From: Clostridia bacterium | GTDB taxonomy: Bacteria > Bacillota > TC1 > UBA5767 | Direction of reading: 5' to 3' | DNA: 64,000 nucleotides | Assembly: GCA_030625965.1 (NCBI GenBank) | Contig: DAOUPV010000004.1 | Span: 18,948-82,947 of the forward strand | Part shown: in pieces, positions 10,013 through 62,688 of the stretch | Numbering within the stretch: position 1 is the stretch's first letter | Layout of the letters: every line of letters starts with the position of its first letter | Made by a program: the position numbers and the translations under genes | The notes under the pieces: model-generated | What the model was told of the DNA's origin: nothing | Database searches by the model: none | Seen by the model: the letters and a program-made list of their open reading frames with translations, nothing else

Positions 10013-10020
10013 GAGGTAGC

Positions 10021-10992: not shown

Positions 10993-11012
10993 AGAGAGAA
11001 AGGGGTAAAGTT

Positions 11013-42346: not shown

Positions 42347-42471
42347 TCTTGAATTTTATGAAAATTTACTTTGAAAAACAAGGTAAAATGACAATAAACG
42401 TAGAATATGAAGAACTCATAGGGAGGGGATGAGTATATCCCGGGTGTCTTTGTCTAAGGAAAGAGGCCAAT

Positions 42472-45511: not shown

Positions 45512-45520
45512 GAGGTAACC

Positions 45521-46942
45521 ATGAAAGTATTAATGATAGCCTCCGAGGCTTATCCTTTCGTCAAGTCCGGAGGATTGGGAGATGTTTTGGGCTCCCTGCC
45601 CAAAGCTCTGCGAGATCTGGGCGTGGATGTCCGGGTAGTGATACCCAAATACCAGGATATTGACGAATCCTACCAGGAGCAGATGACACATCTTGCGGAT
45701 TTCCAGGTTGATCTGGCTTGGAGAAACCAGTTTTGCGGTATAGAAACACTTGAATACCAGGGTATTCCAATCTATTTCGTAGACAATGAGTACTACTTCA
45801 AGAGACAAGGACTCTATGGTTTCTTTGACGAGGCTGAACGTTTTGCGTTCTTTTCCAAAGCGGTGCTTGAGATGCTGCCCCATATCGATTTCATGCCGGA
45901 CATATTGCATGCCCATGACTGGCAGGCTTCTTTGGTGAGTGTATACCACAAGACGCGATACGCACATTTGGATGGCTACAAGGATATGAAGAGTGTTCTG
46001 ACCATTCATAATCTGAAATACCAAGGGGTATTCGCCAAAGAGGTGCTGGGAGATATCCTAGCTTTGGACGAGAGCCTTTTCCACGAAGAATATATGGAAT
46101 TTAACGGCGCCATCAGCTTTCTGAAGGGTGGTATCGTGTTCTGCGATAGGGTGAGTACTGTAAGCAAGACTTATGCAGAAGAGATCAAAACTGCCTATTT
46201 TGGCGAGCAGTTAGAAGGCGTTTTAAGCAAGAAGGGGGATATCTATGGCATCGTGAACGGTATCGACTACCGGACGTTCAATCCGCTGAAGGATCCTGCT
46301 CTTTCCAAAAGATATAAATCCAGCTATAAGAGCAAGCTGTTGAACAAGGAACCTCTGCAGAAGGAACTGGGTCTCACTGTGGATAAGGACATTCCGATGA
46401 TCATTTTCATTTCCCGTCTGGTGGAACAGAAGGGACTGGACCTCATTTTGCATGTCGTGCCGGAAATCTTGGCAGAGGGTGTGCAGTTGGTTGTTCTGGG
46501 AACCGGTGAAGAGCATTATCACCAGGCGCTGTCGGAATATGCAGAAAGATATCCAGAGCAGTTGTCTGTCAATCTCTACTATAGTGAAGAAATGGCCCAT
46601 AAGCTCTACGGTGCTTCAGATATGACACTGTTACCATCCAAGTACGAGCCATGCGGACTGACCCAGCTGATTGCGTTACGTTACGGTTCATTGCCCATTG
46701 TAAGGGAAACTGGTGGTTTGGCGGATACGGTTGATTCATATTGGCCAGAGACGGGTATGGGTAACGGATTCAGCTTCAGCAATTACAACGCGCATGACAT
46801 GCTTCATACTATACATCGGGCAATGACATTCTACAGAAATCCTGAGGTATGGGAGAAGATCGTCAAGAATGCCATGGAAGCTGACAATAGCTGGAAAAAT
46901 TCAGCGGCAGAATATCTGGATCTGTATGAGGAACTGGGTTAG
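45521..46942 (+). CDS. glgA: glycogen synthase (ADP-glucose type)
   Basis: MKVLMIASEAYPFVKSGGLGDV contains the KxGGL motif. PSKYEPCGL is present. Confidence 0.95.
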   Translation: MKVLMIASEAYPFVKSGGLGDVLGSLPKALRDLGVDVRVVIPKYQDIDESYQEQMTHLADFQVDLAWRNQFCGIETLEYQGIPIYFVDNEYYFKRQGLYGFFDEAERFAFFSKAVLEMLPHIDFMPDILHAHDWQASLVSVYHKTRYAHLDGYKDMKSVLTIHNLKYQGVFAKEVLGDILALDESLFHEEYMEFNGAISFLKGGIVFCDRVSTVSKTYAEEIKTAYFGEQLEGVLSKKGDIYGIVNGIDYRTFNPLKDPALSKRYKSSYKSKLLNKEPLQKELGLTVDKDIPMIIFISRLVEQKGLDLILHVVPEILAEGVQLVVLGTGEEHYHQALSEYAERYPEQLSVNLYYSEEMAHKLYGASDMTLLPSKYEPCGLTQLIALRYGSLPIVRETGGLADTVDSYWPETGMGNGFSFSNYNAHDMLHTIHRAMTFYRNPEVWEKIVKNAMEADNSWKNSAAEYLDLYEELG

Positions 46943-46972
46943 GATAGGTTGCATACGGAAGGAAGCGATAAT

Positions 46973-49399: not shown

Positions 49400-49411
49400 T
49401 GAGGAGACGCT

Positions 49412-52400
49412 ATGACTTGGCTTTTACACAACTCATTCAAGCAAGAATATCGAGAACCGTTTGGCGCCTTAATAGTACGGCAGGACGTCACGATTCGATT
49501 GGTCTGGCTCATGGACGAGCCGCAACCGAAGGGGGAAATCGGCATGGTTCAGTTGATACTTGCCGACGACGAGGGCTGGGAGAAACCCCATCTCATGCAG
49601 CTTTTGGGGGAATATCCGTCGGACGGTGTACTTGGTCGCAGGAAAGTGTATGAGACGACACTGCATATGCCTAAGGACCCCCAGCTTTTATGGTATGTCT
49701 TCCGGGTCGCCAAGGATGGGATGACGTATTCCTATGGGCGCAGGGAAGCTTCCCTGAGCGGACCCGGTGAAGTATGCAATGAAACGGACAATCTTCGCCC
49801 TTACCAGATTACCGTATACAAGCCAAAGAGGAGGATACCGGACTGGTACAAGAAAGGGATCGTCTACCAGATTTTTGTGGACCGTTTCCGCCGGACCGAA
49901 TCGAAGGGGTCAGAAGCTTGGTGTGAACAGGTGACCCGGCCCAACCGTGTGCTGCACCTCGACTGGCATGACGATCCATTCTATGTCAGGGACGAAAAAT
50001 CGGGAGCGGTCAGGTATTGGGATTTCTTCGGCGGCAATCTGGATGGCATCATAGAGAAACTGCCCTATTTGAAAACGCTAGGTGTGCGTTGCCTTTATCT
50101 GAATCCTATCTTCGAATCCCTTAGCAACCACAAGTACGATACCGGAGATTACCTGAAGATTGATCCCATGTTCGGAACCCAGGAAACCTTCGAACGGTTG
50201 GTTCATGAAGCCGGGCGGCAGGACATACGTATCATCCTAGACGGCGTGTTCAGCCACACTGGGGAGGACAGCCGCTACTTCAACCGCTATGGGAATTATG
50301 ACTCGTTTGGAGCCTGCCAGTCACAGGATTCACCTTATTATGACTGGTACAGATTCCGCAATTATCCGCATGACTACGAATGTTGGTGGGATGTCACGGC
50401 GCTGCCCAATGTCAACGAAATGCATCCTGGCTATCTTGATTTCATCATCCGGGACAAGGGGAGCGTGCTGGACCATTGGATGGAGGCTGGTGTAGCCGGC
50501 TGGCGCCTGGACGTGGCGGATGAACTGCCGGACCGGTTTATCCGGTTATTCAAGAAAAGCATGCTTAAGAAGAACCAAGACAGTGTTCTGATCGGTGAGG
50601 TCTGGGAGGATGCCACCAACAAGGTGAGCTATGGAGAGAGAAGGGAGTATCTGCTGGGTGCGGAGCTTGACGCTACCATGCATTATCCGTTCCGGGATAC
50701 CGTGTTGGATTTCCTGAAGGGGGAGATCAGCGCAAGCAGGGCAGCCTCCCAGTTGAATACGATAAAGGAACACTATCCTCCGGATGTGTTTCAGGCCCTG
50801 CTCAACATCCTAGGTACCCATGATACCAGAAGGTTGCTGACGGAACTGGAAGGGGATACAGAACGACTGACATCAGCCTTCCTCTGGCAGATGTGTTCAC
50901 CCGGCGTCCCGCACATCTACTATGGGGACGAAGCGGGACTGACTGGCGAGAAAGATCCTATGAATCGGAAACCATACCCATGGGGCAGGGAGAACGGTCA
51001 CATCCTTCATCAGTACCGCCAGCTTGCAGCAGTAAGGTCGCTCTATCCTGTCCTGCAGAAGGGGGAGTTCTCCTGCCATGCCATAGACGAGAAAATCATC
51101 TGTCTGAAACGTGAGCAAAGGGAGCAGGATTCTATAGAAAACCGGGCCCTGGTCTTCATCAACGGACACGATGAGGAGTGGACTATCCATGCTGATATTC
51201 GGGATTGGCCGATGGGACCTCTGCAGGAAGTCTTTCCCGACCATCGGACACATCTTCCTCAGAACGGCATGCTTACAGTGACGCTGAAACCCGGATCCGG
51301 GATACTGCTGTTGCAGAATCCGTGGGTTCGGGAGGAGATGGAACGACGTCAAGCCGGCATCCTTATGCCCATCAGTGCCCTGCCGTCCGCATTCGGCGTG
51401 GGGAATCTGGGTGGAAGTGCAGAAAGATTCCTAGACTTTCTAGAGGAGGCCGGCCATCAGGTCTGGCAGATCCTGCCTTACTCCCAGGGGGATACGTTCC
51501 ATTCGCCCTACTGCTCCATTTCCTCTTTTGCCGGCAACCTACTCTACATCGATCCTGAGGATCTGGTCCAGAGAGGATTGCTGGATCAGGAGGCGTTGAC
51601 GATTGCTTCTGAGTCAGAATTCCCTGAAGAGGAGGTTGATTACGACAAGGCTTGGATTCTGAAGAAGGAACTGCTGCGCCTGGCGTTCCTGCGCTACCGG
51701 AAGGATTCCTCGCGCTTTGCGGAGATGGAGAGGGATATCAAAGCTTTTCGGGAAAAAGAGGGGTATTGGTTGGAAGACCATGCCCTGTTCAAAGCATTGA
51801 AACGAGCGGGACACGAGAGCGTGTGGAACCAATGGGAGCCAGAATTGGTACGCAGGGATGAAGCGACTCTTAACTACTACAGCAACCAGCTGATGGAACA
51901 GATTGATGAGGAAGTGTTCTATCAGTATCTCTTCTTCTCCCAGTGGGATATCATGAAGGAAAAAGCAGTAAAAAGGGGTATTCGAATCATCGGAGATATG
52001 CCACTCTATGTTGCCTTTGATTCGGCCGATGTTTGGTGTCACCAGGAGCTTTACAAGCTGGACGATGAAGGTTCACCAGCTGTGGTTGCCGGCGTACCTC
52101 CGGATTACTTTTCTGAAACAGGACAGCTCTGGGGCAATCCCATCTATGATTGGGCGGAACATGAGCGAACGGATTACGACTGGTGGGTACAGCGGATTGC
52201 TACCCTGCAACGCCGCGTGGATACTATCAGGATCGACCATTTTCGCGGGTTGGCCGACTATTATGAGGTTCCCGCCTGTGAAGAGACGGCCGAACACGGA
52301 ACTTGGCAGAAGGGGCCTGGAATACGTTTCTTCGAAGAGCTTGAGCGGCAGGTGGACGGACTGGATCTGCTATCAGAGAATCTGGGATACCTTTCCTACG

Positions 52401-52825
52401 AAGCCAATCAGCTCAAGGAACAGAGCGGATACCCGGGCATGCTGGTGCTGCAACACTGTAACGATGCGATGGACGAGAACCGGCCGTTCCCGCCCCTCTA
52501 TCTTAGAGGAGAGGTGCTCTACACTGGTACTCATGACGATGAGACCCTGATGGCCTGGCTGCAGAATCGAGGGATGCCCCATAACCTTACGCTGAAGGAA
52601 TTCGCGGTTCACACTTTAACAAGACTCTACTACAGTGATGCTGAACTACTTGTCATCCCCCTGCAGGACCTGCTGCTGCTTGGGAACGAGGCCCGTTTCA
52701 ATCGACCTGGCGTGGCCGGAGGCAACTGGCTATGGCGGGCCACCAACGAACAGCTGAGCGAGAAACTGTCGAGCCGAATACGGGTCTGGGCTGCGGAGTC
52801 CGGACGGTTGCCGAGACCGAGATAA
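49412..52825 (+). CDS. bifunctional fusion: GH13 neopullulanase/cyclomaltodextrinase-like domain plus GH77 4-alpha-glucanotransferase (MalQ) domain
   Basis: The N-terminal half has GH13 regions ILDGVFSHTG, GWRLDVADELP, IGEVWED and ILGTHDTRR. From about nt 51320 the sequence RQAGILMPISALPSAFGVGNLGGSAERFLDFLEEAGHQVWQILP and later IRIDHFRG and YTGTHDDETL are GH77 MalQ blocks. Confidence 0.9.
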   Translation: MTWLLHNSFKQEYREPFGALIVRQDVTIRLVWLMDEPQPKGEIGMVQLILADDEGWEKPHLMQLLGEYPSDGVLGRRKVYETTLHMPKDPQLLWYVFRVAKDGMTYSYGRREASLSGPGEVCNETDNLRPYQITVYKPKRRIPDWYKKGIVYQIFVDRFRRTESKGSEAWCEQVTRPNRVLHLDWHDDPFYVRDEKSGAVRYWDFFGGNLDGIIEKLPYLKTLGVRCLYLNPIFESLSNHKYDTGDYLKIDPMFGTQETFERLVHEAGRQDIRIILDGVFSHTGEDSRYFNRYGNYDSFGACQSQDSPYYDWYRFRNYPHDYECWWDVTALPNVNEMHPGYLDFIIRDKGSVLDHWMEAGVAGWRLDVADELPDRFIRLFKKSMLKKNQDSVLIGEVWEDATNKVSYGERREYLLGAELDATMHYPFRDTVLDFLKGEISASRAASQLNTIKEHYPPDVFQALLNILGTHDTRRLLTELEGDTERLTSAFLWQMCSPGVPHIYYGDEAGLTGEKDPMNRKPYPWGRENGHILHQYRQLAAVRSLYPVLQKGEFSCHAIDEKIICLKREQREQDSIENRALVFINGHDEEWTIHADIRDWPMGPLQEVFPDHRTHLPQNGMLTVTLKPGSGILLLQNPWVREEMERRQAGILMPISALPSAFGVGNLGGSAERFLDFLEEAGHQVWQILPYSQGDTFHSPYCSISSFAGNLLYIDPEDLVQRGLLDQEALTIASESEFPEEEVDYDKAWILKKELLRLAFLRYRKDSSRFAEMERDIKAFREKEGYWLEDHALFKALKRAGHESVWNQWEPELVRRDEATLNYYSNQLMEQIDEEVFYQYLFFSQWDIMKEKAVKRGIRIIGDMPLYVAFDSADVWCHQELYKLDDEGSPAVVAGVPPDYFSETGQLWGNPIYDWAEHERTDYDWWVQRIATLQRRVDTIRIDHFRGLADYYEVPACEETAEHGTWQKGPGIRFFEELERQVDGLDLLSENLGYLSYEANQLKEQSGYPGMLVLQHCNDAMDENRPFPPLYLRGEVLYTGTHDDETLMAWLQNRGMPHNLTLKEFAVHTLTRLYYSDAELLVIPLQDLLLLGNEARFNRPGVAGGNWLWRATNEQLSEKLSSRIRVWAAESGRLPRPR

Positions 52826-52857
52826 GGGAGAAGGCAAGACTTGGCGGATCTGGTAAG

Positions 52858-52910
52858 AATACTGTTTGGAATCATCCGATTTTATCGGAAATTCCAAACA
52901 GTATTTTTTA
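52858..52910 (+). terminator. strong compound Rho-independent terminator of the glycogen operon
   Basis: A 15-bp perfect stem aatactgtttggaat/attccaaacagtatt encloses a second 6-bp stem tccgat/atcgga. A T6 run follows. Confidence 0.9.
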
Positions 52911-53024
52911 TTTGACTACCCCCTAATGGGGAGCTGTTCAAGAATACTGTTGGTTTGCTGTATACTTTTGTTTGGGTTAAACGTTCTATCAATGAGATCT
53001 CAAAACTGGGAAAGGCAGGTAGCG

Positions 53025-54053
53025 ATGGACAATCTTGAAGCACAACTGGTTATAGAAAAAGCAGACATCGTAATTCGTTACTTTCTTAGCATCGGAGTGG
53101 AAGGGCAGACGGCAGAGGATCTGACCGGAGAGGCTATATACAATGCGATACTATATTTTGAGGGAATCGAGCCTGACAAACTGAAAGCCTGGCTGTTCAG
53201 GGTGGCCTTAAATGGCTATTACGACAGCTTGAAGAAGAACAGAAGACAGGTACTGTATGGAACCGTCGACCTGGACAAGATTAGCCGGTATCTGGGAGAG
53301 ACCAATCGCTTTGAGGGCTTATTCCACGGGCATTGCGAAGTATCCACCTACAAACTGATCGGGGGAAAGGTCGTGGCAACGGAACCATTCATGTACAGTT
53401 AGGGCCTGTTCCAGGACTATCGCGGCGACTGGACCGGTTCTTCCAATCCGGAAATCCTATCCAGAAGCCATACGGAAGAAGACGCCGTTGCTGTCCACTA
53501 CAATGTTTTGGGCCAGCGTGAAATGGTATTCTACTACCCCTTCATCGAATATGAATCTTACCGCAACGATCTTAAACTGTTGCTAGATGCGGAAGGTGGC
53601 CAGTTGGCGGAAATTGCCATATCGCTGGATGACTATTACTGCATTACACAGATTGATGCTTTGTTTCCCCAGGAACTGATTGCCTGGTATTGACTTGATG
53701 ATATGGATGAAACGGCAAAGCAGGGTGCGAAAAGTCACATCAGCGTTCAGAAGACCGATGATGGAGAAATCAATCATGAGATGCCCAACTGGATTCGTTC
53801 TGAACAAATAGCATACGGCGTCAAAGCCTATTCCGAGAACGGTATCCGATACGATGAACTGCTGAAGCAGTTCAATCGAGCTGTGAATAAGGGTAGCGCA
53901 CGAGACACCCGCTTCCAGAGTGAGTTTGAACGAATCTACCTGGACGTTTGGCAGGGACAGGAACTGACGGAGGACATGCCCATTTTCGGAGGATTGGTAC
54001 TCAGCGGGACCGCGGAGGAACTACTTGAACTGCTGGATCACCCACATGTGTAA
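53025..54053 (+). pseudogene. decayed ECF-type sigma factor (region 2 only) joined in frame to an anti-sigma-factor C-terminal-domain remnant, interrupted by TAG and TGA
   Basis: One reading frame carries sigma-70 region 2 (AWLFRVALNGYYDSLKKNRRQ) with no region 4. An in-frame TAG follows at 53400-53402. Sigma-regulator C-domain-like sequence follows (EIAISLDDYY...IAWY-TGA-LDD...IFGGLVLSGTAEELLELL), with an in-frame TGA at 53691-53693 where a Trp would fit. Confidence 0.5.
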
Positions 54054-54266
54054 GCCAGTACACTGGGGTTAACGGCTAATCCATTCTAGGAATTCTCAGG
54101 ATGTTTGAATCACCTGCCAAAAGCCATCTCAAGGTTCAGGGGAGATGGTAGAATAATATGTAAAATATGAAAAAAATAATATCCCCCGATACCTTTGATA
54201 CGTAAGGATATCCTCAGGTATTTGGATTTCAGTAATTTATTTGACGTTATAACTTCCATTTATTTA

Positions 54267-54275
54267 TGTTATACT
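54267..54275 (+). promoter_or_regulatory. extended -10 promoter element (TGtTATACT)
   Basis: tgttatact lies about 30 nt upstream of ATG 54307. Confidence 0.4.
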
Positions 54276-54306
54276 GAACAGGAAAAATTTGCATTGGATG
54301 TGAGAT

Positions 54307-55755
54307 ATGCTAAATACAGAATTTGCCGCAGTACTATTATTTTCAGCGGCCATACTATTAAATTTAACATACTACGGATATCGACGAAAGCACCTACCGG
54401 GAGCGAAGCCCTTCTGCCTGCTTATGTTGGCTATGAGCATACAGACCATCGGCTATGCCTTCGAAATCTTGAGCGTCAATCTGGATACGATGGTGTTATG
54501 GCTGCGTATAGAGTATATTGGGGCTTCATTCTATCCTGTGCTAATCATGTATTTCATTCGGGAATATCTTGATGAACGCCGGATCGCCAATAGATATATG
54601 ATTATGTTCCTTCTAGCGCAGAACATATTGACATTGGTCTTGGTTTGGACCAACCCTTTGCACCATCTCTACCATGCGTCATACAGTATGGGACAGACTT
54701 GGGGATTCGAGGTTTTGGCTTTAAGTCGTGGCATCTGGTACTATGTGCACGTATTCGTTTTCTACATGGTGATTATTTTCGGAGCTTATCGGTTGCATCA
54801 GACATATACCAGCGCGACGGGTGTCTACCGCAAGAAGACCATGTTCATCTTCTGCTCCGTTCTGATTCCGATAGTTGTATTCTTAGCCTATCTGTTCGGT
54901 TTAGGTCCAGATCATATTGATACGACCATATTTTCCTATGTTGTGATGGGAGCACTCATTGCCTATGGTTTATATGAGCATGATTTCCTGAACCTTCTAC
55001 CACTGACGCAACAGGATGTGCTGGATGCCATCGACGAGTCGGTTATTGTGCTGGATGCGAATGATAACCTACTGGACTATAATGCGGCGGCAGGGCGGAA
55101 TTTCAACAAGCTGGAGAAAAGCAAATTGGGTAACCTGTTCAGAGAGATAGCTCCATTCGGCCGATTCAATCTGGAACAGTCCGAATCCCAGTTCCATCAT
55201 GAAGGTCTTGTCTTTGGTGCAAAGGTGCGAAACGGGATGAAGAATCGATTCCGCATCGTCGTTTTGCAGGATATTACCAAAAGAGAGACGGCTTATAGAG
55301 AGCTTAAAAAATTTGCCGATAGGGATGCGTTGACATCCTTGTACAACCGACGTTATTTCCTCAATCTGTTTGAGAAGTCATTGAATGATGGGGTTGTGGC
55401 TATATTGGACATAGACTATTTTAAACGGATCAATGATAGTTATGGGCACCTGGCTGGAGATAAGACGCTGGTGGCCTTCTCAAAGAGTCTGAAGAGTTGT
55501 TTTAAGGACTATCCGGTATGCCGCTATGGTGGCGAGGAATTTGCCATATTTGCGGAAGGCCTGACTGTGGCTGAGTTCCAAAGAATGCTGGAAGACTGCC
55601 AGATGAAGCAAGCCGGGGATGCAGACCTAAATGCCATAACATTTTCAGCAGGAATTTCGACCTATAAAGCTGGATATATCGAAGTGGCCATCATCAATGC
55701 CGATGAAAAGCTCTACGAGGCCAAGAAAGCTGGAAGGAACCTGGTGGTTGCCTGA
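54307..55755 (+). CDS. membrane diguanylate cyclase: 7TM sensor domain, PAS-like linker, GGDEF
   Basis: The N-terminal seven-helix region resembles the histidine-kinase-type 7TM sensor module. RYGGEEFAIFA is the GGEEF site. DIDYFKRINDSYGH is present. Confidence 0.85.
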   Translation: MLNTEFAAVLLFSAAILLNLTYYGYRRKHLPGAKPFCLLMLAMSIQTIGYAFEILSVNLDTMVLWLRIEYIGASFYPVLIMYFIREYLDERRIANRYMIMFLLAQNILTLVLVWTNPLHHLYHASYSMGQTWGFEVLALSRGIWYYVHVFVFYMVIIFGAYRLHQTYTSATGVYRKKTMFIFCSVLIPIVVFLAYLFGLGPDHIDTTIFSYVVMGALIAYGLYEHDFLNLLPLTQQDVLDAIDESVIVLDANDNLLDYNAAAGRNFNKLEKSKLGNLFREIAPFGRFNLEQSESQFHHEGLVFGAKVRNGMKNRFRIVVLQDITKRETAYRELKKFADRDALTSLYNRRYFLNLFEKSLNDGVVAILDIDYFKRINDSYGHLAGDKTLVAFSKSLKSCFKDYPVCRYGGEEFAIFAEGLTVAEFQRMLEDCQMKQAGDADLNAITFSAGISTYKAGYIEVAIINADEKLYEAKKAGRNLVVA

Positions 55756-55784
55756 TACGGCTGACCTATCAATAACGGTGTTTA

Positions 55785-55793
55785 TGTTATAAT
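55785..55793 (+). promoter_or_regulatory. orphan extended -10 element (TGtTATAAT)
   Basis: tgttataat lies 30 nt after the GGDEF stop and about 45 nt before the next terminator hairpin. Confidence 0.3.
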
Positions 55794-55839
55794 TTGGTGC
55801 TGTCTTGCTGTATTCATGCACAATTGCCTAAAGTGATAA

Positions 55840-55868
55840 AAAAAAGAATCTTCGGATTCTTTTTTTTA
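55840..55868 (+). terminator. Rho-independent terminator
   Basis: An A8 run, then aagaatc-ttcg-gattctt, then T7. Confidence 0.8.
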
Positions 55869-55967
55869 TGCAATTTTTGTCAATAGCGTCAAATGGCTCA
55901 TAAGCATCGTTAACGAATTATACATTTAGGGGATTAGGGAGTTACTAAAATTTCAGGAGGAAAGATT

Positions 55968-57008
55968 ATGAGAAAGTTCCAAACTGCTATTGCTTTAGTA
56001 CTGTGCCTATTAATGACCATCTTACCGGTAGCCTGTTCCAATTCGGAACCTGCGGCGGTAGAAGGTGAAAGCGAACCTGCAGAGGTGGAAGAGACGACAC
56101 CAGAGGTGCCCTCGGTTGCACTGCTTTTGAACGGACCCATCAGTGACATGGGGTGGAACGCTTCTGCTTTCAATGCTCTAGGGATGATTGAGGAGCAATA
56201 TGGAGCGCAGATCTCCTTTGCGGAGAGTGTGTCCCAATCGGATATGGAAGAAATCTACCGTAATTACGCAACTACCGGTTTTGACATCATATACGGACAT
56301 GGATCACAGTTCACTGATGCTTGTCTGACTGTGGCTAAGGATTTCCCGGAAACCCAGTTCATCATCATAAATGGATCAGCTGCAGTGGAGCCCAACGTGG
56401 CCTGCATGCAGATTGCAGATGATCACCAGGGATTTCTGATGGGGGCTATTGCCGGCATGATGACAGAAACCGGAACAGTTGGTGTCATGGGTGGTTTAGA
56501 GATTCCCCCGATTACCAATGCAGTGAAAGGGTTCCTGGCCGGTGCTAAGTATGTAAATCCGGATGTAGAGATTCTCTCCGCTATGACAGGAAGCTTCGAT
56601 GATGCGGCCAAAGCCAAAGAAACGACGCTAGCCTTTATTGATGCTGGAGCGGACTATGTAGGTGCCATTGCCGGAGCGGCTGGAATGGGCTCCATTGAGG
56701 CTTGTCAGGACCAAGGTGTATACGCCATCGGCGGAGCCGGTGGAGACCAGAACAGTGCAGCACCAGAGACCGTGTTGGTCAGCGTGATTAAGGATGTGCC
56801 AGTACCCTTCTTGTACGCCTATGAGAAGTACTTGGATGGCAGCTTGGAACAGAAGAATTACAGGGTTGGTGTAGGAGAGCGGGCTGTATATTATTCCTCG
56901 TTCCACGGTTTTGAAGACACTGTACCGCAGGATGTAAAGGATGAGCTGGCGAAGGTCATCGAGGCACTCAGCAACGATGAAATCGACTATGGTGACGTCA
57001 GCTACTAG
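55968..57008 (+). CDS. BMP family (PnrA-like, nucleoside-binding) ABC transporter substrate-binding lipoprotein
   Basis: Lipobox ILPVACS followed by an acidic linker. The Bmp-type fold has GWNASAFNAL, IYGHGSQF and GGLEIPPI. No permease or ATPase genes are adjacent. Confidence 0.8.
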   Translation: MRKFQTAIALVLCLLMTILPVACSNSEPAAVEGESEPAEVEETTPEVPSVALLLNGPISDMGWNASAFNALGMIEEQYGAQISFAESVSQSDMEEIYRNYATTGFDIIYGHGSQFTDACLTVAKDFPETQFIIINGSAAVEPNVACMQIADDHQGFLMGAIAGMMTETGTVGVMGGLEIPPITNAVKGFLAGAKYVNPDVEILSAMTGSFDDAAKAKETTLAFIDAGADYVGAIAGAAGMGSIEACQDQGVYAIGGAGGDQNSAAPETVLVSVIKDVPVPFLYAYEKYLDGSLEQKNYRVGVGERAVYYSSFHGFEDTVPQDVKDELAKVIEALSNDEIDYGDVSY

Positions 57009-57063: not shown

Positions 57064-57095
57064 AAGAAGAACCCATTCGTGGGTTCTTCTTTTTG
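57064..57095 (+). terminator. Rho-independent terminator
   Basis: aagaagaaccca-ttcg-tgggttcttctt followed by ttt. Confidence 0.85.
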
Positions 57096-57373
57096 TATCG
57101 TAGGGAGATAGGATACTGAGCCAATAGGTTCTATCGAGATGACATGATAATATTAGAGGGTTAAATGATAAGTGTTATATATGTATGATTAATGTTTAGT
57201 GTATAATTAAATACATATTTGAGCGCAGAGAAACATGCTTACATGTAGGCTTCTTGGATATTGGGCCAGCCTTAAACTGAAAATCAGAAACACATACTTT
57301 TTAGCTGAAAGTTAGAATCAGAATCGAATGTCATCATCTGCTACGATCTAAAGCGAAAAGCAATGGAGGTACT

Positions 57374-58513
57374 ATGAAATTTCTTCACCTTGGGGATCTA
57401 CACATCGGAAAACGTGTAAATGAATTCCCTATGATCGAAGACCAACGATATATTTTCAAACAGATTCTTGAGATCGCCGAGAAAGAACAAGTGGATGGAG
57501 TGATACTGGCGGGAGATATCTATGACAAGGCACTCCCTTCGGGAGAATCGGTGGAGCTGTTCGATCATCTACTGACTCGTCTGTCAGAGATGGATCTTCA
57601 GGTTTACGGTATAAGTGGAAATCATGACAGCGCGGAGAGAATCGGTTATGGGTCCAGAATCATGGCCCACAGAGGCGTATATCTTTCCAAACCATACGAC
57701 GGAGAATTAGAAAGCATAGATCTGGTCGATGATTATGGACCGCTGCGCATTTATCTGTTGCCATTCATTAAGCCGGCCAATGTCAGGCGATTCGATGAAG
57801 ATATTGAAATCGGGAGTTATGAGGATGCCGTAAGATCTGTCTTTCGTAGAAGCGCTATCGGGACTGACAGTAGGAATATCCTGGTTGCCCATCAATTCGT
57901 TACCAACAATGGAGTCGAGCCGGAACGCAGCGATTCTGAAGTGGTGTCCGTCGGGGGGCTAGATAACATAGACGCATCTGTTTTTAAAGATTTTGATTAT
58001 GTGGCCTTAGGACATATCCACAGACCACAGCGTGTAGCCAAAGAGACAATCCGCTACTCAGGTTCTCCACTTAAATATTCGTTCTCTGAAGTCAACCACA
58101 GGAAATCTGTGACCATCGTGGATGTACGCACCAAAGGGGATGTGCAGTTGAAACAGATCGAATTGATACCCCTGAAGGATATGAAGAAAATCAAGGGGTC
58201 TATTACGGAGTTGCTGAATCCGGACTTTTATACGAACCTAAATACGAATGACTATTACCATGTCACGCTGACTGATGAGGCGGTAATGGACGCCATTGGC
58301 AAGCTGCGCATGGTCTTTCCAAATATTATGCGGTTGGAATTTGAAGGCAGTGAAGCCGAACGAGCAGCGGAACTGAGGGTGCTGGAAAAAATGGAGCTCT
58401 CCAGTACTATGGAGATTTTTGAGGAATTCTATGATATGCAGAACGGGAGACAAATGGACGAGTCCAGAAAAGCCATCATCAGAGAGCTTTTGAGTGAGGA
58501 GAGACAAGCATGA
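57374..58513 (+). CDS. sbcD: exonuclease SbcCD nuclease subunit D (Mre11 family)
   Basis: The calcineurin-like phosphoesterase motifs GDLHIG, AGDIYD, GNHD and GHIH are present. 379 aa. Confidence 0.9.
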   Translation: MKFLHLGDLHIGKRVNEFPMIEDQRYIFKQILEIAEKEQVDGVILAGDIYDKALPSGESVELFDHLLTRLSEMDLQVYGISGNHDSAERIGYGSRIMAHRGVYLSKPYDGELESIDLVDDYGPLRIYLLPFIKPANVRRFDEDIEIGSYEDAVRSVFRRSAIGTDSRNILVAHQFVTNNGVEPERSDSEVVSVGGLDNIDASVFKDFDYVALGHIHRPQRVAKETIRYSGSPLKYSFSEVNHRKSVTIVDVRTKGDVQLKQIELIPLKDMKKIKGSITELLNPDFYTNLNTNDYYHVTLTDEAVMDAIGKLRMVFPNIMRLEFEGSEAERAAELRVLEKMELSSTMEIFEEFYDMQNGRQMDESRKAIIRELLSEERQA

Positions 58514-61278
58514 AACCAATCCATCTGACGATGAGCGCATTCGGTCCATATGCCGGTAAAATTGAGGTTCCCTTGTCTGAGTTGGGGGAAAGTGGACTCT
58601 ATCTGATTACCGGTGATACAGGTTCGGGGAAAACAACCATTTTTGATGCTATAGCCTTTGCCTTGTATGGTGAAGCCAGTGGCGATTCGAGAGAAAGTGA
58701 CATGTTTCGAAGCGACTTTGCCAAACCACAGGATAAGACCTATGTTGAGCTTCGTTTCTTATTCCGCGGAGAGGAATATGAGGTTATTCGAAATCCGCGT
58801 TACACCAGACCCAAAAAGACCGGAGAAGGAGTAACCACTGAGAATCCTGATGCCATACTTAATATGCCAGATGGTAGGGTGATTACCGGTAGCAGCAAAG
58901 TAACCAATGAGATTTGTGTACTGACAGGATTGGATCGCAAGCAGTTCAGCCAGATTGTTATGATCGCACAAGGGGATTTTCTGAAACTGTTGCATGCGAA
59001 TACCAAGGACAAAGGGGAAATATTCCGAAAAATCTTCAATACGGATAGCTTCAAGCAATTTCAGGACAGCCTGAAACGAGAAGCTATTTTATGGAACGGT
59101 AAATATCAGGAGCAAAAGAACCGCATCTTGCAATCCATGAATCAGATTTCGATTGCGGAAGATGCACCGGAAGCTGAGCACCTAAGGTCAATTTTGGCGG
59201 AAGGAAACGTGCATTACCTGGCTGATACGATGGAAATTCTAACAACGTTCAGTGGTAGGGACGAAGTATTACTACAGACAATCATTGAGTATATACAAGG
59301 AATGGATGCTAAAATCGAACAGTTGGACCAGAGCATAGGACGGTTGAGCGAAGAAGATAAGATTAGACAGGATATCAAGGATACAGGTGCGGTGTTAACA
59401 GCGCTAAAAGATAATTTAGCAACAGTCCAGAAGGCCTACGAGCAGGCCAAAGCGAAAGGGCCCGAACTGGAAGGATTGAAAGAGGAGATCACCACACTCA
59501 GGAACGCCTTACCGGAATATAACCGTTTGGCGGAAAAGCAGATGGAGCAGAAACAGATTGAAATCTCACTGGAGAAGGTGAAATCAGATAACGAAACTCT
59601 AGCAGGACATATAGAAGAGCTACAGAAGAGACGCGCCGAAGCAATAAGCGAAATTGAGGTCATTGGAGAAGTTGGAGAAGAACTGGAGCGCTGCTACGCC
59701 AAGAAAAAGGAACTGGCGGTCAGTTTGGAAAAATTTGGTGAAATTGCAAATTTGCATAGCAGATTCCTTGAAGTTAGCAAGAGACTCTCTATGGAACAAG
59801 CAGAATATCGCCAGTCAGCCGATGTTGAAAAGGAACTGACTGACAGGTACCAGCAGGCACATCGTACCTATCTTAAGAACATGGCGGGCATCCTGGCGGA
59901 GGATATTCGTGAAGGAGAACCTTGTCCAGTTTGTGGATCCACTGAACACCCAGTTATAGCACAAAAAGCGCAAGAGACCTTGAATAAAGAGGAAATCGAT
60001 GCCTTGCAGGATAAGGCAGCCCAGGCGGTCGAAGCACTAAGACGTACCAGCGAACTAGCTGTCGCCAGCAACAAGGAAAAGAACCTGCTATGGGAGCAGT
60101 TAGAGCGGCAGGCAGCTCAGATGCTGGATACCGTAGAGATTACGCTTATAGGCGAGCGGTTGAATGCGGCTCAAAAAGATGTGAGACAGTTCTTAGATGA
60201 TCTACATAGTAACATCATGGAACTGGAGGAAATGCAGCTGAAAAAGCAGGGCTTGCGTAAGGAATTGGAACGTTGCATCCTGAAACAAGAAAAGCTGGAC
60301 ATGGACTCGGAAAAATTTAAGCTCGAGCTTGATGTGCTGGCCATAGAAAACAGCCAGCTTATCGGTCATATAGCTTCAATAAAGGGTTCGCTTCGCTACG
60401 ATAGCATAGAGGCCGTACAGCTAAAGCTTGAGGAAAAAGAAGAGGAACGCGACCTTTTGATGCAGGAACTGGAGCATACAGAAGAATCACTGAGAAAGAA
60501 TGAGCGTCAGATAAAGGTAGAATCATCTCGTCTGCAGACCTTGGAGGAACAGATCACAGAGGAAAACCCAGTTGTCCTTGAAAACCTGAAAGAGGAAAGA
60601 TTGGGTAAGGACAGGGAGCGGCAGAACCTTCTTGTAAGAAAATCGGATGTTCAGGAACGAATGAACAGAAATCGGAGTATTTCGGAGCAACTACGGGTTC
60701 AGGAGGAAAGCCTCAAGGAAACCGAAGAGAAAGCATTGATGTACTCCAATCTATCGGATACGGCAAACGGTAATTTGAGCGAGAGAAGAAAGATTGCTTT
60801 TGAACAGTATATCCAGTCGGTCTACCTGGATCGTATTTTGGTCCTAGCGAATCAAAGACTGAAGGCTATGACATCCGGAAGATACGTCCTGTTGCGAAAA
60901 GAGGAAGCGGAGAATTTGAGAAGCCAGTCTGGTTTGGATCTGGATGTGCTGGACCGCCATACGAACAAAGTGCGTAGCGTCAAGACGTTGTCTGGTGGAG
61001 AATCGTTCAAGGCCTCGTTAGCGCTAGCGTTGGGAATGTCCGACGTTATTCAGCAGTATGCCGGTGGGGTGCAGGTCGAAGCTATGTTTGTGGATGAAGG
61101 ATTTGGATCGCTGGATCAGGAATCCTTATCTCAAGCCATTGACATCCTCATTCAACTGTCAGATAGCGATCGAATCGTGGGCATCATTTCCCATGTATCC
61201 GAATTGAGGGAGAGAATCGATAAGAAAATCATCATTCAAAAGGGTTTACAGGGGAGCTCAGTCCGACTAGAGCAATAA
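58510..61278 (+). CDS. sbcC: exonuclease SbcCD ATPase subunit C (Rad50/SMC-like)
   Basis: Walker A GDTGSGKTT, a long coiled coil with the zinc hook CPVCGSTEHP, signature LSGGESF and Walker B MFVDEGFGSLD are present. ATGA overlap with sbcD. Confidence 0.9.
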   Translation: MKPIHLTMSAFGPYAGKIEVPLSELGESGLYLITGDTGSGKTTIFDAIAFALYGEASGDSRESDMFRSDFAKPQDKTYVELRFLFRGEEYEVIRNPRYTRPKKTGEGVTTENPDAILNMPDGRVITGSSKVTNEICVLTGLDRKQFSQIVMIAQGDFLKLLHANTKDKGEIFRKIFNTDSFKQFQDSLKREAILWNGKYQEQKNRILQSMNQISIAEDAPEAEHLRSILAEGNVHYLADTMEILTTFSGRDEVLLQTIIEYIQGMDAKIEQLDQSIGRLSEEDKIRQDIKDTGAVLTALKDNLATVQKAYEQAKAKGPELEGLKEEITTLRNALPEYNRLAEKQMEQKQIEISLEKVKSDNETLAGHIEELQKRRAEAISEIEVIGEVGEELERCYAKKKELAVSLEKFGEIANLHSRFLEVSKRLSMEQAEYRQSADVEKELTDRYQQAHRTYLKNMAGILAEDIREGEPCPVCGSTEHPVIAQKAQETLNKEEIDALQDKAAQAVEALRRTSELAVASNKEKNLLWEQLERQAAQMLDTVEITLIGERLNAAQKDVRQFLDDLHSNIMELEEMQLKKQGLRKELERCILKQEKLDMDSEKFKLELDVLAIENSQLIGHIASIKGSLRYDSIEAVQLKLEEKEEERDLLMQELEHTEESLRKNERQIKVESSRLQTLEEQITEENPVVLENLKEERLGKDRERQNLLVRKSDVQERMNRNRSISEQLRVQEESLKETEEKALMYSNLSDTANGNLSERRKIAFEQYIQSVYLDRILVLANQRLKAMTSGRYVLLRKEEAENLRSQSGLDLDVLDRHTNKVRSVKTLSGGESFKASLALALGMSDVIQQYAGGVQVEAMFVDEGFGSLDQESLSQAIDILIQLSDSDRIVGIISHVSELRERIDKKIIIQKGLQGSSVRLEQ

Positions 61279-61427
61279 AAGTGAAGAGTTGTAAGACGTT
61301 AAACATAGCAGGATTTGAGCGCATAAGCGCTAATTTAAGGATGTTTTTCCCTTCTAGTTGAAGTACAATGTTTACATGCTCAGAGAACACATTCTGGTCA
61401 ACTGTCATTGGAAAGAGGAACTCATAT

Positions 61428-62627
61428 ATGCCAGCTAAAATTGAACAAATTGTATTGAACGCTCTGCTGGATAGATTTGAGCGAAGAAAAGAAGGATCGA
61501 CCAGGCGAGTCATGCTTAGGCCGGACCAGTATGTGGAGTACGGGTTGGACTATCTGGTGAACAAAGAATCGTTTCATGAAGCAGTCTACAGTTTAGCGAC
61601 TGAAGGATATATAGAACTAGAATGGAAACACGATCAGGAAAGAAAGAACCTTAGTTGTGTAGTATTAAGTAAGGATTACGTGTCAGAGAGCTATAAATAT
61701 TTAGGACGTCTGCCTAAAGGTACACAAAACGAGGAATACCTGAAGGAACTGAAGAACATATTGAATATCTATCATTCCGAATGGATCAGGGATTTCATCC
61801 AGGAGTGCATCACCATACTGGAGGTAGAAGGAAAACTGAGCGGATCCCTGTCGGGAGACAAGAAGATTCGTGAGGATTTCTACAAGCTTTTGAAGGCGGT
61901 GGAGGATGGTGTGGAGACCAGCAGCCGCTACCTTAGTACTAGACTGTATGGGGACAGCAAGACTTTGGAGAGGTATCACCTGTCCAAGCTGGTGACCGTA
62001 GCCAAGAAGTATCTGGATCTGGATTTGGACAAGAAGAAGGTACTGGATTTTCTAGGCATCCAGAATCATCCCACGGAGATTCTGATCAAAGGTGACTTGA
62101 GCTATAGGCTGGGTGAAGGTAATGTGATTGAAACTTCAATGCACACCTTCGGGACCTCCATAAACGCCCATGCTATACAAGTGATGGAACCAATATCCCT
62201 GTCATGCAGTCGAATTCTCACCATTGAGACCAAGGCGACCTACTATGAATACATTAAGAATGCGGAAGAAGGGGAGCTTGTCATCTATCTTGGTGGCTAC
62301 TATGGCAAGGCAACAAGGGACTTTCTGAAAAAGCTGAGTCCGATCATTACACCAGAAACACCATTCTATCACTGGGGTGATGTGGACCTAGGTGGATTGC
62401 GATTCTTCATCAATCTCTGTGAGATACTGAATCGTCAGGTGCTTCCCATGCGGATGGACCGCGACACTTACTTGCAGTACTACAGCCAGGAGCTGGGGTT
62501 GACGGAAGATCAGTTGAAGAAAGTGGAACAGCTGAAGTCTAGTCCATGGTCCGGTGTCATTGAAGAGTCTATCGATGTGCTTCTGGAAACCAAGTATCGC
62601 TTGGAACAGGAACGAATTCCATTGTAA
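61428..62627 (+). CDS. JetD-like protein (DUF2220-type Toprim / Topo VI-A-like C-terminal domain)
   Basis: The C-terminal third carries ILTIETKATYYEY (Toprim Glu), LVIYLGGYYG, YHWGDVDLGGLRFF (DxD) and PMRMDRDTY. I recognise these as the Wadjet JetD/MksG C-terminal domain pattern. ATG 61428 sits behind AAGAGGA. Confidence 0.65.
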   Translation: MPAKIEQIVLNALLDRFERRKEGSTRRVMLRPDQYVEYGLDYLVNKESFHEAVYSLATEGYIELEWKHDQERKNLSCVVLSKDYVSESYKYLGRLPKGTQNEEYLKELKNILNIYHSEWIRDFIQECITILEVEGKLSGSLSGDKKIREDFYKLLKAVEDGVETSSRYLSTRLYGDSKTLERYHLSKLVTVAKKYLDLDLDKKKVLDFLGIQNHPTEILIKGDLSYRLGEGNVIETSMHTFGTSINAHAIQVMEPISLSCSRILTIETKATYYEYIKNAEEGELVIYLGGYYGKATRDFLKKLSPIITPETPFYHWGDVDLGGLRFFINLCEILNRQVLPMRMDRDTYLQYYSQELGLTEDQLKKVEQLKSSPWSGVIEESIDVLLETKYRLEQERIPL

Positions 62628-62647: not shown

Positions 62648-62688
62648 AACAATGGACCGAGAAGTATCATACTTATCGGTCCATTGTT
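62648..62688 (+). terminator. strong hairpin after the JetD-like gene
   Basis: A 13-bp perfect stem aacaatggaccga/tcggtccattgtt with a 15-nt loop. There is no clean T-run. Confidence 0.5.

What the first reader, a model, noticed from the sequence alone, without database searches (positions are those of the whole stretch)
57374..62627. sbcD-sbcC followed by an orphan JetD-like Toprim protein: a possible Rad50/Mre11-coupled analogue of the Wadjet effector arrangement
Seen: sbcD and sbcC are translationally coupled (ATGA). An ORF follows 149 nt downstream on the same strand. I found no convincing intrinsic terminator in that gap, and a 13-bp hairpin follows the ORF. Its C-terminal domain has the pattern ETK..(Toprim Glu), WGDVDLGG (DxD) and MDRDT. 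Established: this DUF2220/JetD-C domain is the Topo VI-A/Spo11-like nuclease of Wadjet (JetABCD/MksBEFG). There it is activated by an SMC-family loop-extruding ATPase to cleave plasmids. SbcC is itself an SMC-like Rad50 ATPase, and in eukaryotes Mre11-Rad50 processes Spo11-capped breaks. No jetA/B/C-like genes are in the window, and this SbcC (922 aa) is shorter than E. coli or B. subtilis SbcC. Inference: this may be a three-gene module in which SbcCD supplies the DNA-sensing or end-processing partner for a JetD-type nuclease. Its role could be defence against foreign DNA or a specialised repair function.
Basis: partly seen in the sequence, partly recalled or inferred. Interest (0 to 1): 0.75.

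Follow-up and report, generated by a model that had tools for sequence, protein, structure and literature searches.

The report
Orphan JetD nuclease fixed behind sbcDC
In a rarely sampled group of Clostridia, the DNA-cutting subunit of the Wadjet anti-plasmid system has lost its usual partner genes, sits directly behind the ordinary SbcCD (Mre11-Rad50) repair genes and is conserved like a housekeeping gene, which suggests, but does not prove, that it has taken on a new job.

Summary
sbcD (57374-58513) and sbcC (58510-61278) overlap by ATGA. The next ORF (true start 61428, end 62627) is a full-length type-I JetD/MksG nuclease, not only a JetD C-terminal domain. It matches PADLOC JetD1 at E=7e-84 end to end. 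Its predicted fold matches MksG, JetD, Topo VI-A and Spo11. The Toprim Glu, DxD and C-terminal ExE residues are intact.

No jetA/B/C is present in the 64-kb window. All five relatives with genomic context, including the complete genome CP069393.1, keep sbcD-sbcC-jetD. All 22 JetD loci outside this clade have a JetC-sized gene directly upstream and no SbcCD.

The orphan is not decaying. Its dN/dS is 0.02-0.045, lower than sbcC or sbcD, and it is more conserved than its neighbours. In canonical operons JetD is the fastest-evolving subunit.

The 922-aa SbcC is the normal Clostridial length. The linkage arose once, in one lineage. A strongly conserved non-coding block in the sbcC-jetD gap suggests jetD has its own control element.

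Verdict: a domesticated orphan JetD. Coupling to SbcCD is plausible but unproven.

The parts
57064..57091 (+). Intrinsic terminator of the upstream Bmp/PnrA-like lipoprotein gene. It marks the 5' boundary of the unit.
   Evidence: Scan hit with a 12-bp stem and a T-run. The hairpin core is conserved in L001 and L032.
57200..57207 (+). TGTATAAT, an extended -10-like box of the sbcD promoter, followed by a leader of about 165 nt.
   Evidence: GTGTATAATT is conserved upstream of sbcD in the window, L001, L032 and L003. No expression data.
57374..58513 (+). sbcD, the Mre11-type nuclease subunit (379 aa).
   Evidence: Pfam Metallophos plus SbcD_C. NCBIfam TIGR00619 scores 153.6 bits against a cutoff of 77.65. 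dN/dS is 0.062.
58510..61278 (+). sbcC, the Rad50-type ATPase (922 aa). It is translationally coupled to sbcD by ATGA.
   Evidence: AAA_23 plus SbcC_Walker_B; Walker A, signature motif, Walker B and zinc hook CPVC at residue 472. The length is typical for Clostridia. dN/dS is 0.095-0.115.
61339..61378 (+). Conserved non-coding block GGATGTTTTTC-N8-TTGAAGTACAATGTTTACATG in the sbcC-jetD gap. It is a candidate promoter or operator for jetD.
   Evidence: Block 2 is identical in the window, L001 and L032, one base different in L002, and mostly kept in the 54%-GC locus L003 (17 of its 21 columns are invariant across all five), although synonymous sites are saturated between the subclades. No Rfam match and no conserved fold. 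The function is inferred.
61410..61420 (+). Ribosome-binding site GGAAAGAGGAA of jetD.
   Evidence: Conserved in all five loci, 7-8 nt before the conserved ATG.
61428..62627 (+). Orphan type-I jetD (399 aa): an aCAP domain (about residues 1-215) and a Toprim domain (about 216-399).
   Evidence: PADLOC JetD1 at 7e-84 over the full length. AF2 model with pLDDT 89. Foldseek hits 8b7f MksG, 7til JetD, Topo VI-A and Spo11. E267, D318 and D320 are invariant; E393 and E395 are at least 90% conserved. dN/dS is 0.02-0.045.
62648..62688 (+). Hairpin with 20-nt arms after jetD, the probable 3' end of the transcription unit.
   Evidence: A hairpin is visible at the same place in the L002 and L001 sequences, and L032 has a scan-called terminator there.

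Best explanation
An ancestor of this Clostridia lineage acquired or retained only the nuclease gene of a Firmicute type-I Wadjet system. That gene became fixed as the third gene behind the lineage's ordinary sbcD-sbcC operon. This much is shown.

The protein keeps everything a JetD needs to cut DNA: a Toprim domain with the Glu/DxD metal site, the C-terminal ExE, and a highly conserved aCAP arm. It is under housekeeping-grade purifying selection.

Inferred mechanism: a Toprim-mediated JetD dimer makes Mg2+/Mn2+-dependent double-strand cuts in bent or otherwise distorted DNA. It works in the same DNA-break pathway as SbcCD. It is transcribed by read-through from sbcDC and also from its own conserved element in the gap. 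SbcCD either processes the ends JetD makes or, in the stronger form, supplies through the SbcC head the SMC-type docking and activation that JetC normally provides.

The pathway-level link with SbcCD is an inference from position and family logic. It is not demonstrated.
For: - Identity as JetD.
- Origin: the clade is nested inside operon-encoded type-I JetDs in an NJ tree, sister to P0006. The nearest relatives P0007, P0013 and P0015 lie in jetABCD operons. P0006 and P0014 share contig lengths with JetC hits P0197 and P0204.
- Conserved order: all five clade genomes with context (window=L033, L002, L001, L032, L003) have sbcD-sbcC-jetD on one strand. Genes on both sides vary: gdhA versus ADP-ribosylglycohydrolase plus mutY downstream, and Bmp present or absent upstream. 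GC content ranges from 37.5 to 53.8%.
- No terminator in the gap.
- Strong constraint: jetD dN/dS is 0.045 and 0.020, against 0.115 and 0.095 for sbcC and 0.062 for sbcD. JetD identity is 74-75% and 92%, against SbcD 69-70/82, SbcC 58-60/78, GGDEF 65-68/78 and MutY 71. It is similar to pyrophosphatase at 93%.
- Regime shift: in canonical operons JetD is the fastest-evolving subunit, at 42-47% identity against 54-73% for JetA, JetB and JetC.
- The aCAP domain, including the N-terminal arm, is as conserved as the Toprim domain.
- Clade SbcC proteins deviate at 6-8 of 130 near-universal sites. The 113 other SbcC proteins deviate at 0-4.
- Literature: JetD is autoinhibited alone and needs docking on an SMC head (bioRxiv 10.1101/2023.11.03.565488). 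SbcC is the adjacent SMC-like ATPase.
Against: - The linkage has a single evolutionary origin. No SbcCD lies next to the 20 non-clade JetD loci searched by tblastn, two more carry jetA/B/C by Pfam, and no JetD lies next to 3 more distant SbcCD loci. No paper links JetD or DUF2220 with SbcCD.
- Upstream neighbours (sigma, anti-sigma, GGDEF) are also syntenic in the clade, so simple vertical inheritance explains much of the conserved order.
- The conserved block in the gap suggests separate regulation.
- SbcC has no clade-specific indel, and its deviant residues are mostly conservative changes.
- No JetB-like N-terminal helix motif exists in these loci.
- JetD pairing with JetABC is type-specific (bioRxiv 10.1101/2025.03.10.642339), so docking on Rad50 would need a new interface.
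- The finding was selected because of the adjacency, which is an ascertainment bias.
Confidence: 0.45

Rival explanations
1. JetD here is a stand-alone domesticated nuclease. It is still functional and strongly selected, but it works without SbcCD, for example as a self-regulated endonuclease switched on by its own promoter under a particular condition. The position behind sbcC is a historical accident of one insertion or deletion event, kept by ordinary synteny.
For: - The conserved promoter/operator-like block lies directly upstream of jetD.
- The linkage has a single origin.
- The whole neighbourhood is syntenic within the clade.
- SbcCD looks like the ordinary lineage copy.
- C. glutamicum MksG alone cuts plasmid DNA in vitro at 5 uM with Mn2+ (PMC10123090).
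Against: - JetD of type-I systems is reported inactive or autoinhibited in isolation, and is non-specific at high concentration (PMC10586767; bioRxiv 10.1101/2023.11.03.565488). An unregulated copy would be dangerous.
- The aCAP arm that normally docks on partners is the best-conserved part of the protein, at 82-84%.
- By my own estimate (not computed), landing next to one of the few SMC-like ATPase genes of a genome of about 2,500 genes by chance is well under 1% per event.
- Rearrangements occur on both sides of the trio but never inside it.
Confidence: 0.3
2. JetD still serves an SMC complex encoded elsewhere in the genome: a split Wadjet (jetABC at another locus), an MksBEF-type condensin, or Smc-ScpAB. 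The sbcCD neighbourhood is then irrelevant.
For: - JetD keeps the conserved N-terminal arm and aCAP used to dock on JetC and JetB (bioRxiv 10.1101/2023.11.03.565488).
- Only 64 kb of this genome and +/-10 kb of relatives could be inspected.
Against: - No JetA, JetB or JetC in the window or in any clade locus.
- Among the 120 best database matches (down to 36% identity) to the nearest-operon JetC, none comes from a contig of 2,563,013 bp (CP069393.1) or 87,217 bp (the contig that carries the window's SbcC). This is a weak negative.
- In canonical systems jetD overlaps jetC. All 22 other loci examined keep a JetC-sized gene directly upstream, so split systems appear rare.
- The shift from fastest-evolving subunit to housekeeping-like conservation argues for a changed role.
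Confidence: 0.15
3. The gene is a decaying remnant of a lost Wadjet locus with no present function.
For: jetABC is absent. The nearby sigma/anti-sigma pair in the window is visibly degenerate, so gene decay does occur in this region.
Against: - Intact reading frames of 399-400 aa in the four error-free clade loci (window=L033, L002, L001, L032); the L003 copy is shifted at its C-terminus, consistent with assembly errors that also split sbcC and gdhA there.
- Catalytic residues are invariant.
- dN/dS is 0.02-0.045 with synonymous sites saturated.
- The gene is more conserved than sbcC, sbcD or mutY.
Confidence: 0.02

Closest known systems
Type-I Wadjet / MksBEFG nuclease subunit JetD (MksG), e.g. 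C. glutamicum MksG (PDB 8b7f) and P. aeruginosa JetD (7til)
   Same: - Full-length homology to the JetD1 HMM.
- The same aCAP plus Toprim architecture and fold.
- The same acidic metal-site residues and C-terminal ExE.
- Phylogenetically nested among operon-encoded Firmicute JetDs.
   Different: - No jetA, jetB or jetC next to it.
- It follows sbcC with a 99-156-nt gap (149 nt in the window), measured in four clade loci, that holds a conserved non-coding block. Canonical jetD overlaps jetC.
- It evolves slowly (dN/dS 0.02-0.045), whereas JetD is the fastest-evolving subunit in canonical operons.
Topo VI-A / Spo11 with Mre11-Rad50 end processing
   Same: - Toprim fold and metal site. The family profile hits Topo VI-A 2zbk at E=7.6e-8, and Foldseek hits Topo VI-A and Spo11.
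- A Topo VI-A-like DNA breaker encoded beside an Mre11-Rad50 complex echoes the Spo11-MRN relationship.
   Different: - JetD is reported to lack the catalytic tyrosine and to act as a hydrolytic nuclease (PMC10586767), so there is no covalent adduct for SbcCD to remove.
- No Topo VI-B-like partner is present.
- The analogy is conceptual and was not tested.
ABC-ATPase plus Toprim-nuclease defence pairs (PARIS AriA/AriB, Gabija GajA, OLD family). This comparison is from my own knowledge.
   Same: A coiled-coil or ABC ATPase gene next to a Toprim nuclease gene, which is the recurring logic of an ATPase sensor controlling a Toprim effector.
   Different: - The Toprim protein is of the JetD/Topo VI-A type, not the OLD/AriB type. 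PADLOC returned only JetD models for it.
- The ATPase is the ordinary lineage SbcC with its Mre11 partner, not a dedicated defence ATPase.
- The locus is syntenic and slowly evolving, not in a defence island.
P. aeruginosa MksBEF, a Wadjet-type condensin that lost JetD (PMC10586767)
   Same: A Wadjet-derived component retained on its own and apparently turned to a chromosomal, non-defence role.
   Different: It is the reciprocal case. There the SMC core survives without the nuclease. Here the nuclease survives without the SMC core.

Membership tests
JetD/MksG nuclease family (PF09983 JetD_C with N-terminal aCAP) | Full-length sequence match to JetD profiles | tested here: met
   PADLOC JetD1 PDLC00533 at E=7.2e-84, protein residues 24-417 of the 419-aa ORF against model positions 3-405 of 409. 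Six further JetD1 models score below 1e-30. Pfam JetD_C at 2.8e-22, 79.3 bits against a cutoff of 22.
JetD/MksG nuclease family (PF09983 JetD_C with N-terminal aCAP) | Toprim metal-binding Glu and DxD, plus the C-terminal conserved glutamates | tested here: met
   E267, D318 and D320 are invariant, and E393 and E395 are at least 90% conserved, in the 41-sequence alignment A1. They align with the Topo VI-A E and DxD. They correspond by motif to MksG E236/D279 and E349/E351 (PMC10123090).
JetD/MksG nuclease family (PF09983 JetD_C with N-terminal aCAP) | Two-domain fold (aCAP plus Toprim) like solved JetD/MksG structures | tested here: met
   AF2 model with pLDDT 89.2. The best Foldseek PDB hit is 8b7f MksG at E=1.1e-10 over 427 columns, followed by 7til JetD, Topo VI-A and Spo11. 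TM scores are only about 0.4, as expected for a flexible two-domain protein.
Wadjet system (JetABCD) | jetA (kleisin), jetB (KITE) and jetC (SMC) encoded with jetD, with jetC directly upstream | tested here: not met
   No JetA or JetB match in the window or the five clade loci. JetC queries hit only the SbcC Walker A region. Pfam of the ORFs in the upstream ~17 kb (40817-57008) shows glycogen, sigma, GGDEF and Bmp genes. All 22 non-clade loci do have a JetC-sized gene upstream.
Wadjet system (JetABCD) | jetABC present elsewhere in the same genome (split system) | tested here: inconclusive
   Only an indirect test was possible. None of the 120 best JetC matches carries the contig length of CP069393.1 or of the contig that carries the window's SbcC (87,217 bp). 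The whole genome could not be scanned with these tools.
Wadjet system (JetABCD) | Partner motif for the aCAP domain (JetB N-terminal helix, MID-R[FY]D[KR]L in the nearest operons) | tested here: not met
   The motif is present at the N-terminus of JetB in L004-L006. It is absent from all six frames of the window and the clade loci.
SbcCD (bacterial Mre11-Rad50) | SbcD metallophosphatase with SbcD_C; SbcC with Walker A/B, signature motif and CxxC zinc hook; the two genes translationally coupled | tested here: met
   SbcC scores 246 bits on TIGR00618, below the 478.5 cutoff of a model built on longer proteins, but its 922-aa length is shared by dozens of Clostridial SbcC proteins.
Topo VI-A / Spo11 | Catalytic tyrosine in a 5Y-CAP domain forming a covalent DNA link | not tested
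   Only the Toprim part aligns significantly. The literature states that the JetD CAP lacks the catalytic Tyr (PMC10586767). Y38 and Y89 are conserved family-wide in the aCAP domain, but their role was not examined.
   Co-occurrence is conserved in one clade (5 of 5 genomes). It was not seen in the 20 non-clade JetD loci searched by tblastn or in 3 other SbcCD loci, and L037 and L038 carry jetA/B/C by Pfam. Physical dependence is not testable with these tools.

The most novel reading that the evidence does not exclude
JetD has switched SMC-family partner. In this lineage its aCAP arm docks on the head or neck of the Rad50-type SbcC instead of JetC. SbcCD-JetD would then be a three-protein machine in which a Rad50 ATPase licenses a Topo VI-A-like nuclease and Mre11 processes the resulting ends. 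That would be a bacterial counterpart of the Spo11/MRN relationship, acting on chromosomal or foreign DNA.
Probability: 0.2. Interest if true: 0.85.

Novelty: new variant of a known kind. Interest (0 to 1): 0.5.

Why it matters
JetD is described as exclusive to JET/Wadjet SMC complexes and as inactive without them (bioRxiv 10.1101/2023.11.03.565488). Here a catalytically intact JetD has survived without jetABC across a lineage deep enough to saturate synonymous sites and to span 37-54% GC. It is conserved more tightly than the repair genes beside it.

That means a defence nuclease has been recruited to a stable cellular role. If the partner is SbcCD, it would show that Toprim/Topo VI-A-type nucleases can be coupled to Rad50 as well as to kleisin-SMC motors. 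It would also give a simple three-gene bacterial system for studying how an SMC-family ATPase licenses a DNA breaker.

If there is no partner, it would show that JetD autoinhibition can be managed without JetABC. Either result can be tested directly with the cloned cassette.

Tried and rejected
- **Short SbcC as a specialised partner:** rejected. About 920 aa is the common Clostridial length, and there are no clade-specific indels.
- **Pseudogene or remnant:** rejected by dN/dS and intact motifs.
- **N-terminal extension from ATG 61368:** rejected. It is not conserved and is interrupted by stops in L001 and L032.
- **Known RNA, riboswitch or attenuator in the gap:** no Rfam match at E<=1, and only 3 predicted pairs with no covariation.
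- **The gap as a relic of the jetC 3' end:** translations do not resemble JetC C-termini. Only the SD-like AAAGAGGA is shared.
- **sbcC 3' end derived from jetC by recombination:** JetC queries match only Walker A.
- **Shared operator between the sbcD and jetD upstream regions:** only 8-mers are shared, which I estimate is about what chance would give (not computed). One 11-mer is shared in the window only.
- **JetB-like docking helix in SbcC, SbcD or elsewhere:** none found.
- **More clade members:** the scan of GTDB representative genomes and the JGI metagenome scan returned only distant canonical JetDs.
- **Plasmid and phage collections:** six distant plasmid JetDs, one beside an annotated SbcC/MukB-like Walker B (JetC-type) gene; none in phages.
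- **Sigma-factor assignment of the conserved block:** I compared it by eye with sigma-A, sigma-H and sigma-E/K consensus sequences recalled from memory. No assignment was convincing, so none is claimed.
- **A fused-chain AlphaFold run for SbcC-JetD:** not attempted. The tool returns no interface information and accepts only native sequences.
Full report
**1. What is there**

The ORF list confirms sbcD at 57374-58513 and sbcC at 58510-61278, overlapping by ATGA. A third same-strand ORF ends at 62627.

- SbcD matches Metallophos plus SbcD_C and passes the TIGR00619 cutoff.
- SbcC matches AAA_23 plus SbcC_Walker_B. It has Walker A, signature and Walker B motifs and a CPVC zinc hook at residue 472.
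- The unit is bounded upstream by a terminator at 57064-57091 and a conserved TGTATAAT at 57200.
- It is bounded downstream by a hairpin with 20-nt arms at 62648-62688. Glutamate dehydrogenase follows.
- The third ORF's conserved start is ATG 61428, with the ribosome-binding site GGAAAGAGGAA just before it. The upstream in-frame ATG at 61368 is not conserved.

**2. The third gene is a complete JetD**

- PADLOC's JetD1 model PDLC00533 matches end to end at E=7e-84. Pfam JetD_C matches at 2.8e-22.
- An AlphaFold2 model built on a 41-sequence alignment has mean pLDDT 89.
- Its best PDB matches are the C. glutamicum MksG nuclease (8b7f, E=1e-10), Topo VI-A, P. aeruginosa JetD (7til) and Spo11.
- The family profile also hits Topo VI-A by sequence, aligning the Toprim Glu and DxD.
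- E267, D318 and D320 are invariant in the family alignment, and the C-terminal E393/E395 are at least 90% conserved.

**3. It is an orphan, and that is unusual**

- Pfam scans of the ORFs in the upstream ~17 kb (40817-57008) show glycogen metabolism, a sigma factor, a GGDEF protein and a Bmp lipoprotein.
- tblastn with JetA, JetB and JetC from the three nearest operons finds nothing in the window or in relatives' loci except the generic Walker A of SbcC.
- Every JetD locus outside this clade that has upstream sequence carries a JetC-sized gene directly upstream, 22 of 22:
  - L004, L005, L006, L037 and L038 have Pfam-annotated jetA-jetB-jetC.
  - 11 loci have a complete 1110-1182-aa Walker-A ORF.
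  - 6 loci have a long ORF truncated by the contig end.
- None of the 20 of these loci in the tblastn search (L004-L031) has SbcC or SbcD.

**4. The clade**

A search of 5.8 billion proteins found only five close clusters at 71-91% identity, followed by a drop to 44%. Genomic context is available for five distinct genomes:

- the window, which is identical to L033;
- L002;
- L001;
- L003;
- L032, which is the complete 2.56-Mb genome CP069393.1 ('Clostridia bacterium'; JetD is QRN86196.1).

All five read sbcD-sbcC-jetD. Flanking genes vary. Downstream is gdhA in the window and L003, but ADP-ribosylglycohydrolase plus mutY in L001, L002 and L032. The Bmp gene upstream is present or absent. GC content ranges from 37.5 to 53.8%.

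An NJ tree nests the clade inside operon-encoded Firmicute type-I JetDs. More distant SbcCD operons, at about 40% identity, are followed by ybeY and not jetD. The arrangement therefore arose once, in the ancestor of a deep but narrow lineage.

**5. It is functional and has changed evolutionary regime**

Nei-Gojobori estimates and amino-acid identities between subclades:

| Gene | dN/dS | Identity (window vs L001/L032) | Identity (L001 vs L032) |
|---|---|---|---|
| jetD | 0.045 (window-L002), 0.020 (L001-L032) | 74-75% | 92% |
| sbcC | 0.115, 0.095 | 58-60% | 78% |
| sbcD | 0.062 | 69-70% | 82% |
| GGDEF | not computed | 65-68% | 78% |
| mutY | not computed | not available | 71% |
| pyrophosphatase | not computed | not available | 93% |

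- Synonymous sites are saturated between the two subclades.
- In the nearest canonical operons JetD is the fastest-evolving subunit, at 42-47% identity against 54-73% for JetA, JetB and JetC.
- The aCAP domain, including the N-terminal arm that docks JetD on JetC and JetB in Wadjet, is as conserved as the Toprim domain. Residues 1-45 are 82-84% identical.
- The neighbouring sigma/anti-sigma pair in the window is visibly degenerate, with three in-frame stops. Decay does happen in this region, but jetD has escaped it.

**6. Is it coupled to SbcCD?**

For coupling:

- The trio is never broken, although both flanks rearrange.
- No terminator or conserved hairpin lies in the gap.
- Published work shows type-I JetD is autoinhibited alone and needs docking on the JetC head. 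JetD and JetABC of different types are not interchangeable (bioRxiv 10.1101/2023.11.03.565488 and 10.1101/2025.03.10.642339; PMC10586767). A conserved orphan therefore probably has some partner, and SbcC is the adjacent SMC-like ATPase.
- Clade SbcC proteins deviate at 6-8 of the 130 sites that are at least 97% conserved among 113 other Clostridial SbcC proteins. Any other single sequence deviates at 0-4, with a median of 0. Five changes are fixed in the clade: R168K, Q458M, F773L, L843M and D857E. This is a mild signal, and most changes are conservative.

Against coupling:

- The linkage has one origin and no independent recurrence in my small sample. No literature links the two.
- The upstream genes are syntenic too.
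- SbcC has the ordinary length and no special indel.
- No JetB-like docking motif is present.
- The gap contains a conserved block, GGATGTTTTTC-N8-TTGAAGTACAATGTTTACATG (61339-61378). Its second part is identical in the window, L001 and L032, one base different in L002, and largely kept in the 54%-GC locus L003 (17 of its 21 columns are invariant across all five). It matches no Rfam family and has no conserved fold. I read it as a DNA-level promoter or operator for jetD. That means at least partly separate control.

**7. jetABC elsewhere?**

Whole genomes could not be scanned. Indirectly, none of the 120 best matches (down to 36% identity) to the nearest-operon JetC comes from a contig of 2,563,013 bp or 87,217 bp. 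The same contig-length fingerprint does link P0006, P0013, P0014 and P0015 to their JetC proteins. This is a weak negative for a closely related JetC. It says nothing about divergent SMC partners.

**8. Verdict**

The gene is a bona fide JetD but not part of a Wadjet system. It is a domesticated orphan kept under housekeeping-grade constraint behind an ordinary sbcDC operon.

My estimates are:

- about 0.45 that it functions in the same pathway as SbcCD, of which about 0.2 is the strong form (SbcC replaces JetC as the activating ATPase);
- about 0.3 that it is an independent nuclease whose position is historical;
- about 0.15 that it serves an SMC complex encoded elsewhere.

Novelty: a new variant of a known kind. 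Interest is moderate at 0.5. The regime shift and the orphan status are real and would surprise Wadjet specialists. However, the headline Rad50 coupling rests on a single evolutionary event.

Noticed in passing
window 61339-61378 (also L001 9905-9946, L032 12773-12814, L002 ~3018-3059, L003 ~9390-9432): Bipartite non-coding block GGATG(A/T)TTTTC-N8-TTGAAGTACAATGTTTACATG upstream of jetD. It is conserved across genomes of 37-54% GC whose synonymous sites are saturated. It occurs once in the window even when 3 mismatches are allowed. It has no Rfam match and no conserved fold. It is probably a promoter or operator, and the sigma factor or regulator is unknown.
   Followed up: partly
window 52866-54086: The sigma/anti-sigma pair found intact in L001 and L032 (Sigma70_r2/r4 plus Sigma_reg_N/C) looks degenerate here. 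The sigma ORF has only a weak r2 hit and no r4 hit. It runs in frame into an anti-sigma homologue (58% identity to L032 residues 86-353) that is broken by three in-frame stops.
   Followed up: partly
window 58510-61278 (SbcC residues 168, 458, 773, 843, 857): SbcC of the JetD-linked clade carries fixed substitutions (R168K, Q458M, F773L, L843M, D857E) at sites that are at least 97% conserved in 113 other Clostridial SbcC proteins. Each clade member has 6-8 such deviations, against 0-4 for any other sequence. Their meaning is unknown.
   Followed up: partly
window 57217-57227 and 61313-61323: The 11-mer ATTTGAGCGCA occurs both in the sbcD 5' leader and in the sbcC-jetD spacer. I estimate about 0.02 such matches by chance (not computed). 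It is not conserved in the other clade loci.
   Followed up: no
window 57208-57373: An untranslated leader of about 165 nt lies between the conserved TGTATAAT box and the sbcD start. It is much longer than in L001 or L032 and is not conserved with them.
   Followed up: no
window 49412-52825: A 1137-aa ORF fuses an alpha-amylase catalytic domain (residues 153-520) to a complete GH77 4-alpha-glucanotransferase (652-1115). It lies at the end of a glycogen gene cluster (branching enzyme, ADP-glucose pyrophosphorylase, glycogen synthase and phosphorylase).
   Followed up: no
L003 (ENA ERZ21831104 ctg76040l) 6584-12293: sbcC, jetD and gdhA are each split or frame-shifted in this long-read metagenome contig. 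These are most likely assembly indel errors rather than real pseudogenes, so L003 was left out of the dN/dS estimates.
   Followed up: partly
L004 7453-10002: The nearest canonical jetABCD operon is followed by an 849-aa AAA_23/AAA_13/SMC_N ATPase gene, a second SMC-like or ABC ATPase right after jetD. It may be a neighbouring defence gene.
   Followed up: no
window 61428-62627, residue 268: The residue after the Toprim Glu is Thr (IETK) in the window and in L001, but Asn (IENK) in P0001, P0002 and P0004 and in at least 90% of the family. M. jannaschii Topo VI-A also has IETS, so Thr is probably tolerated.
   Followed up: no
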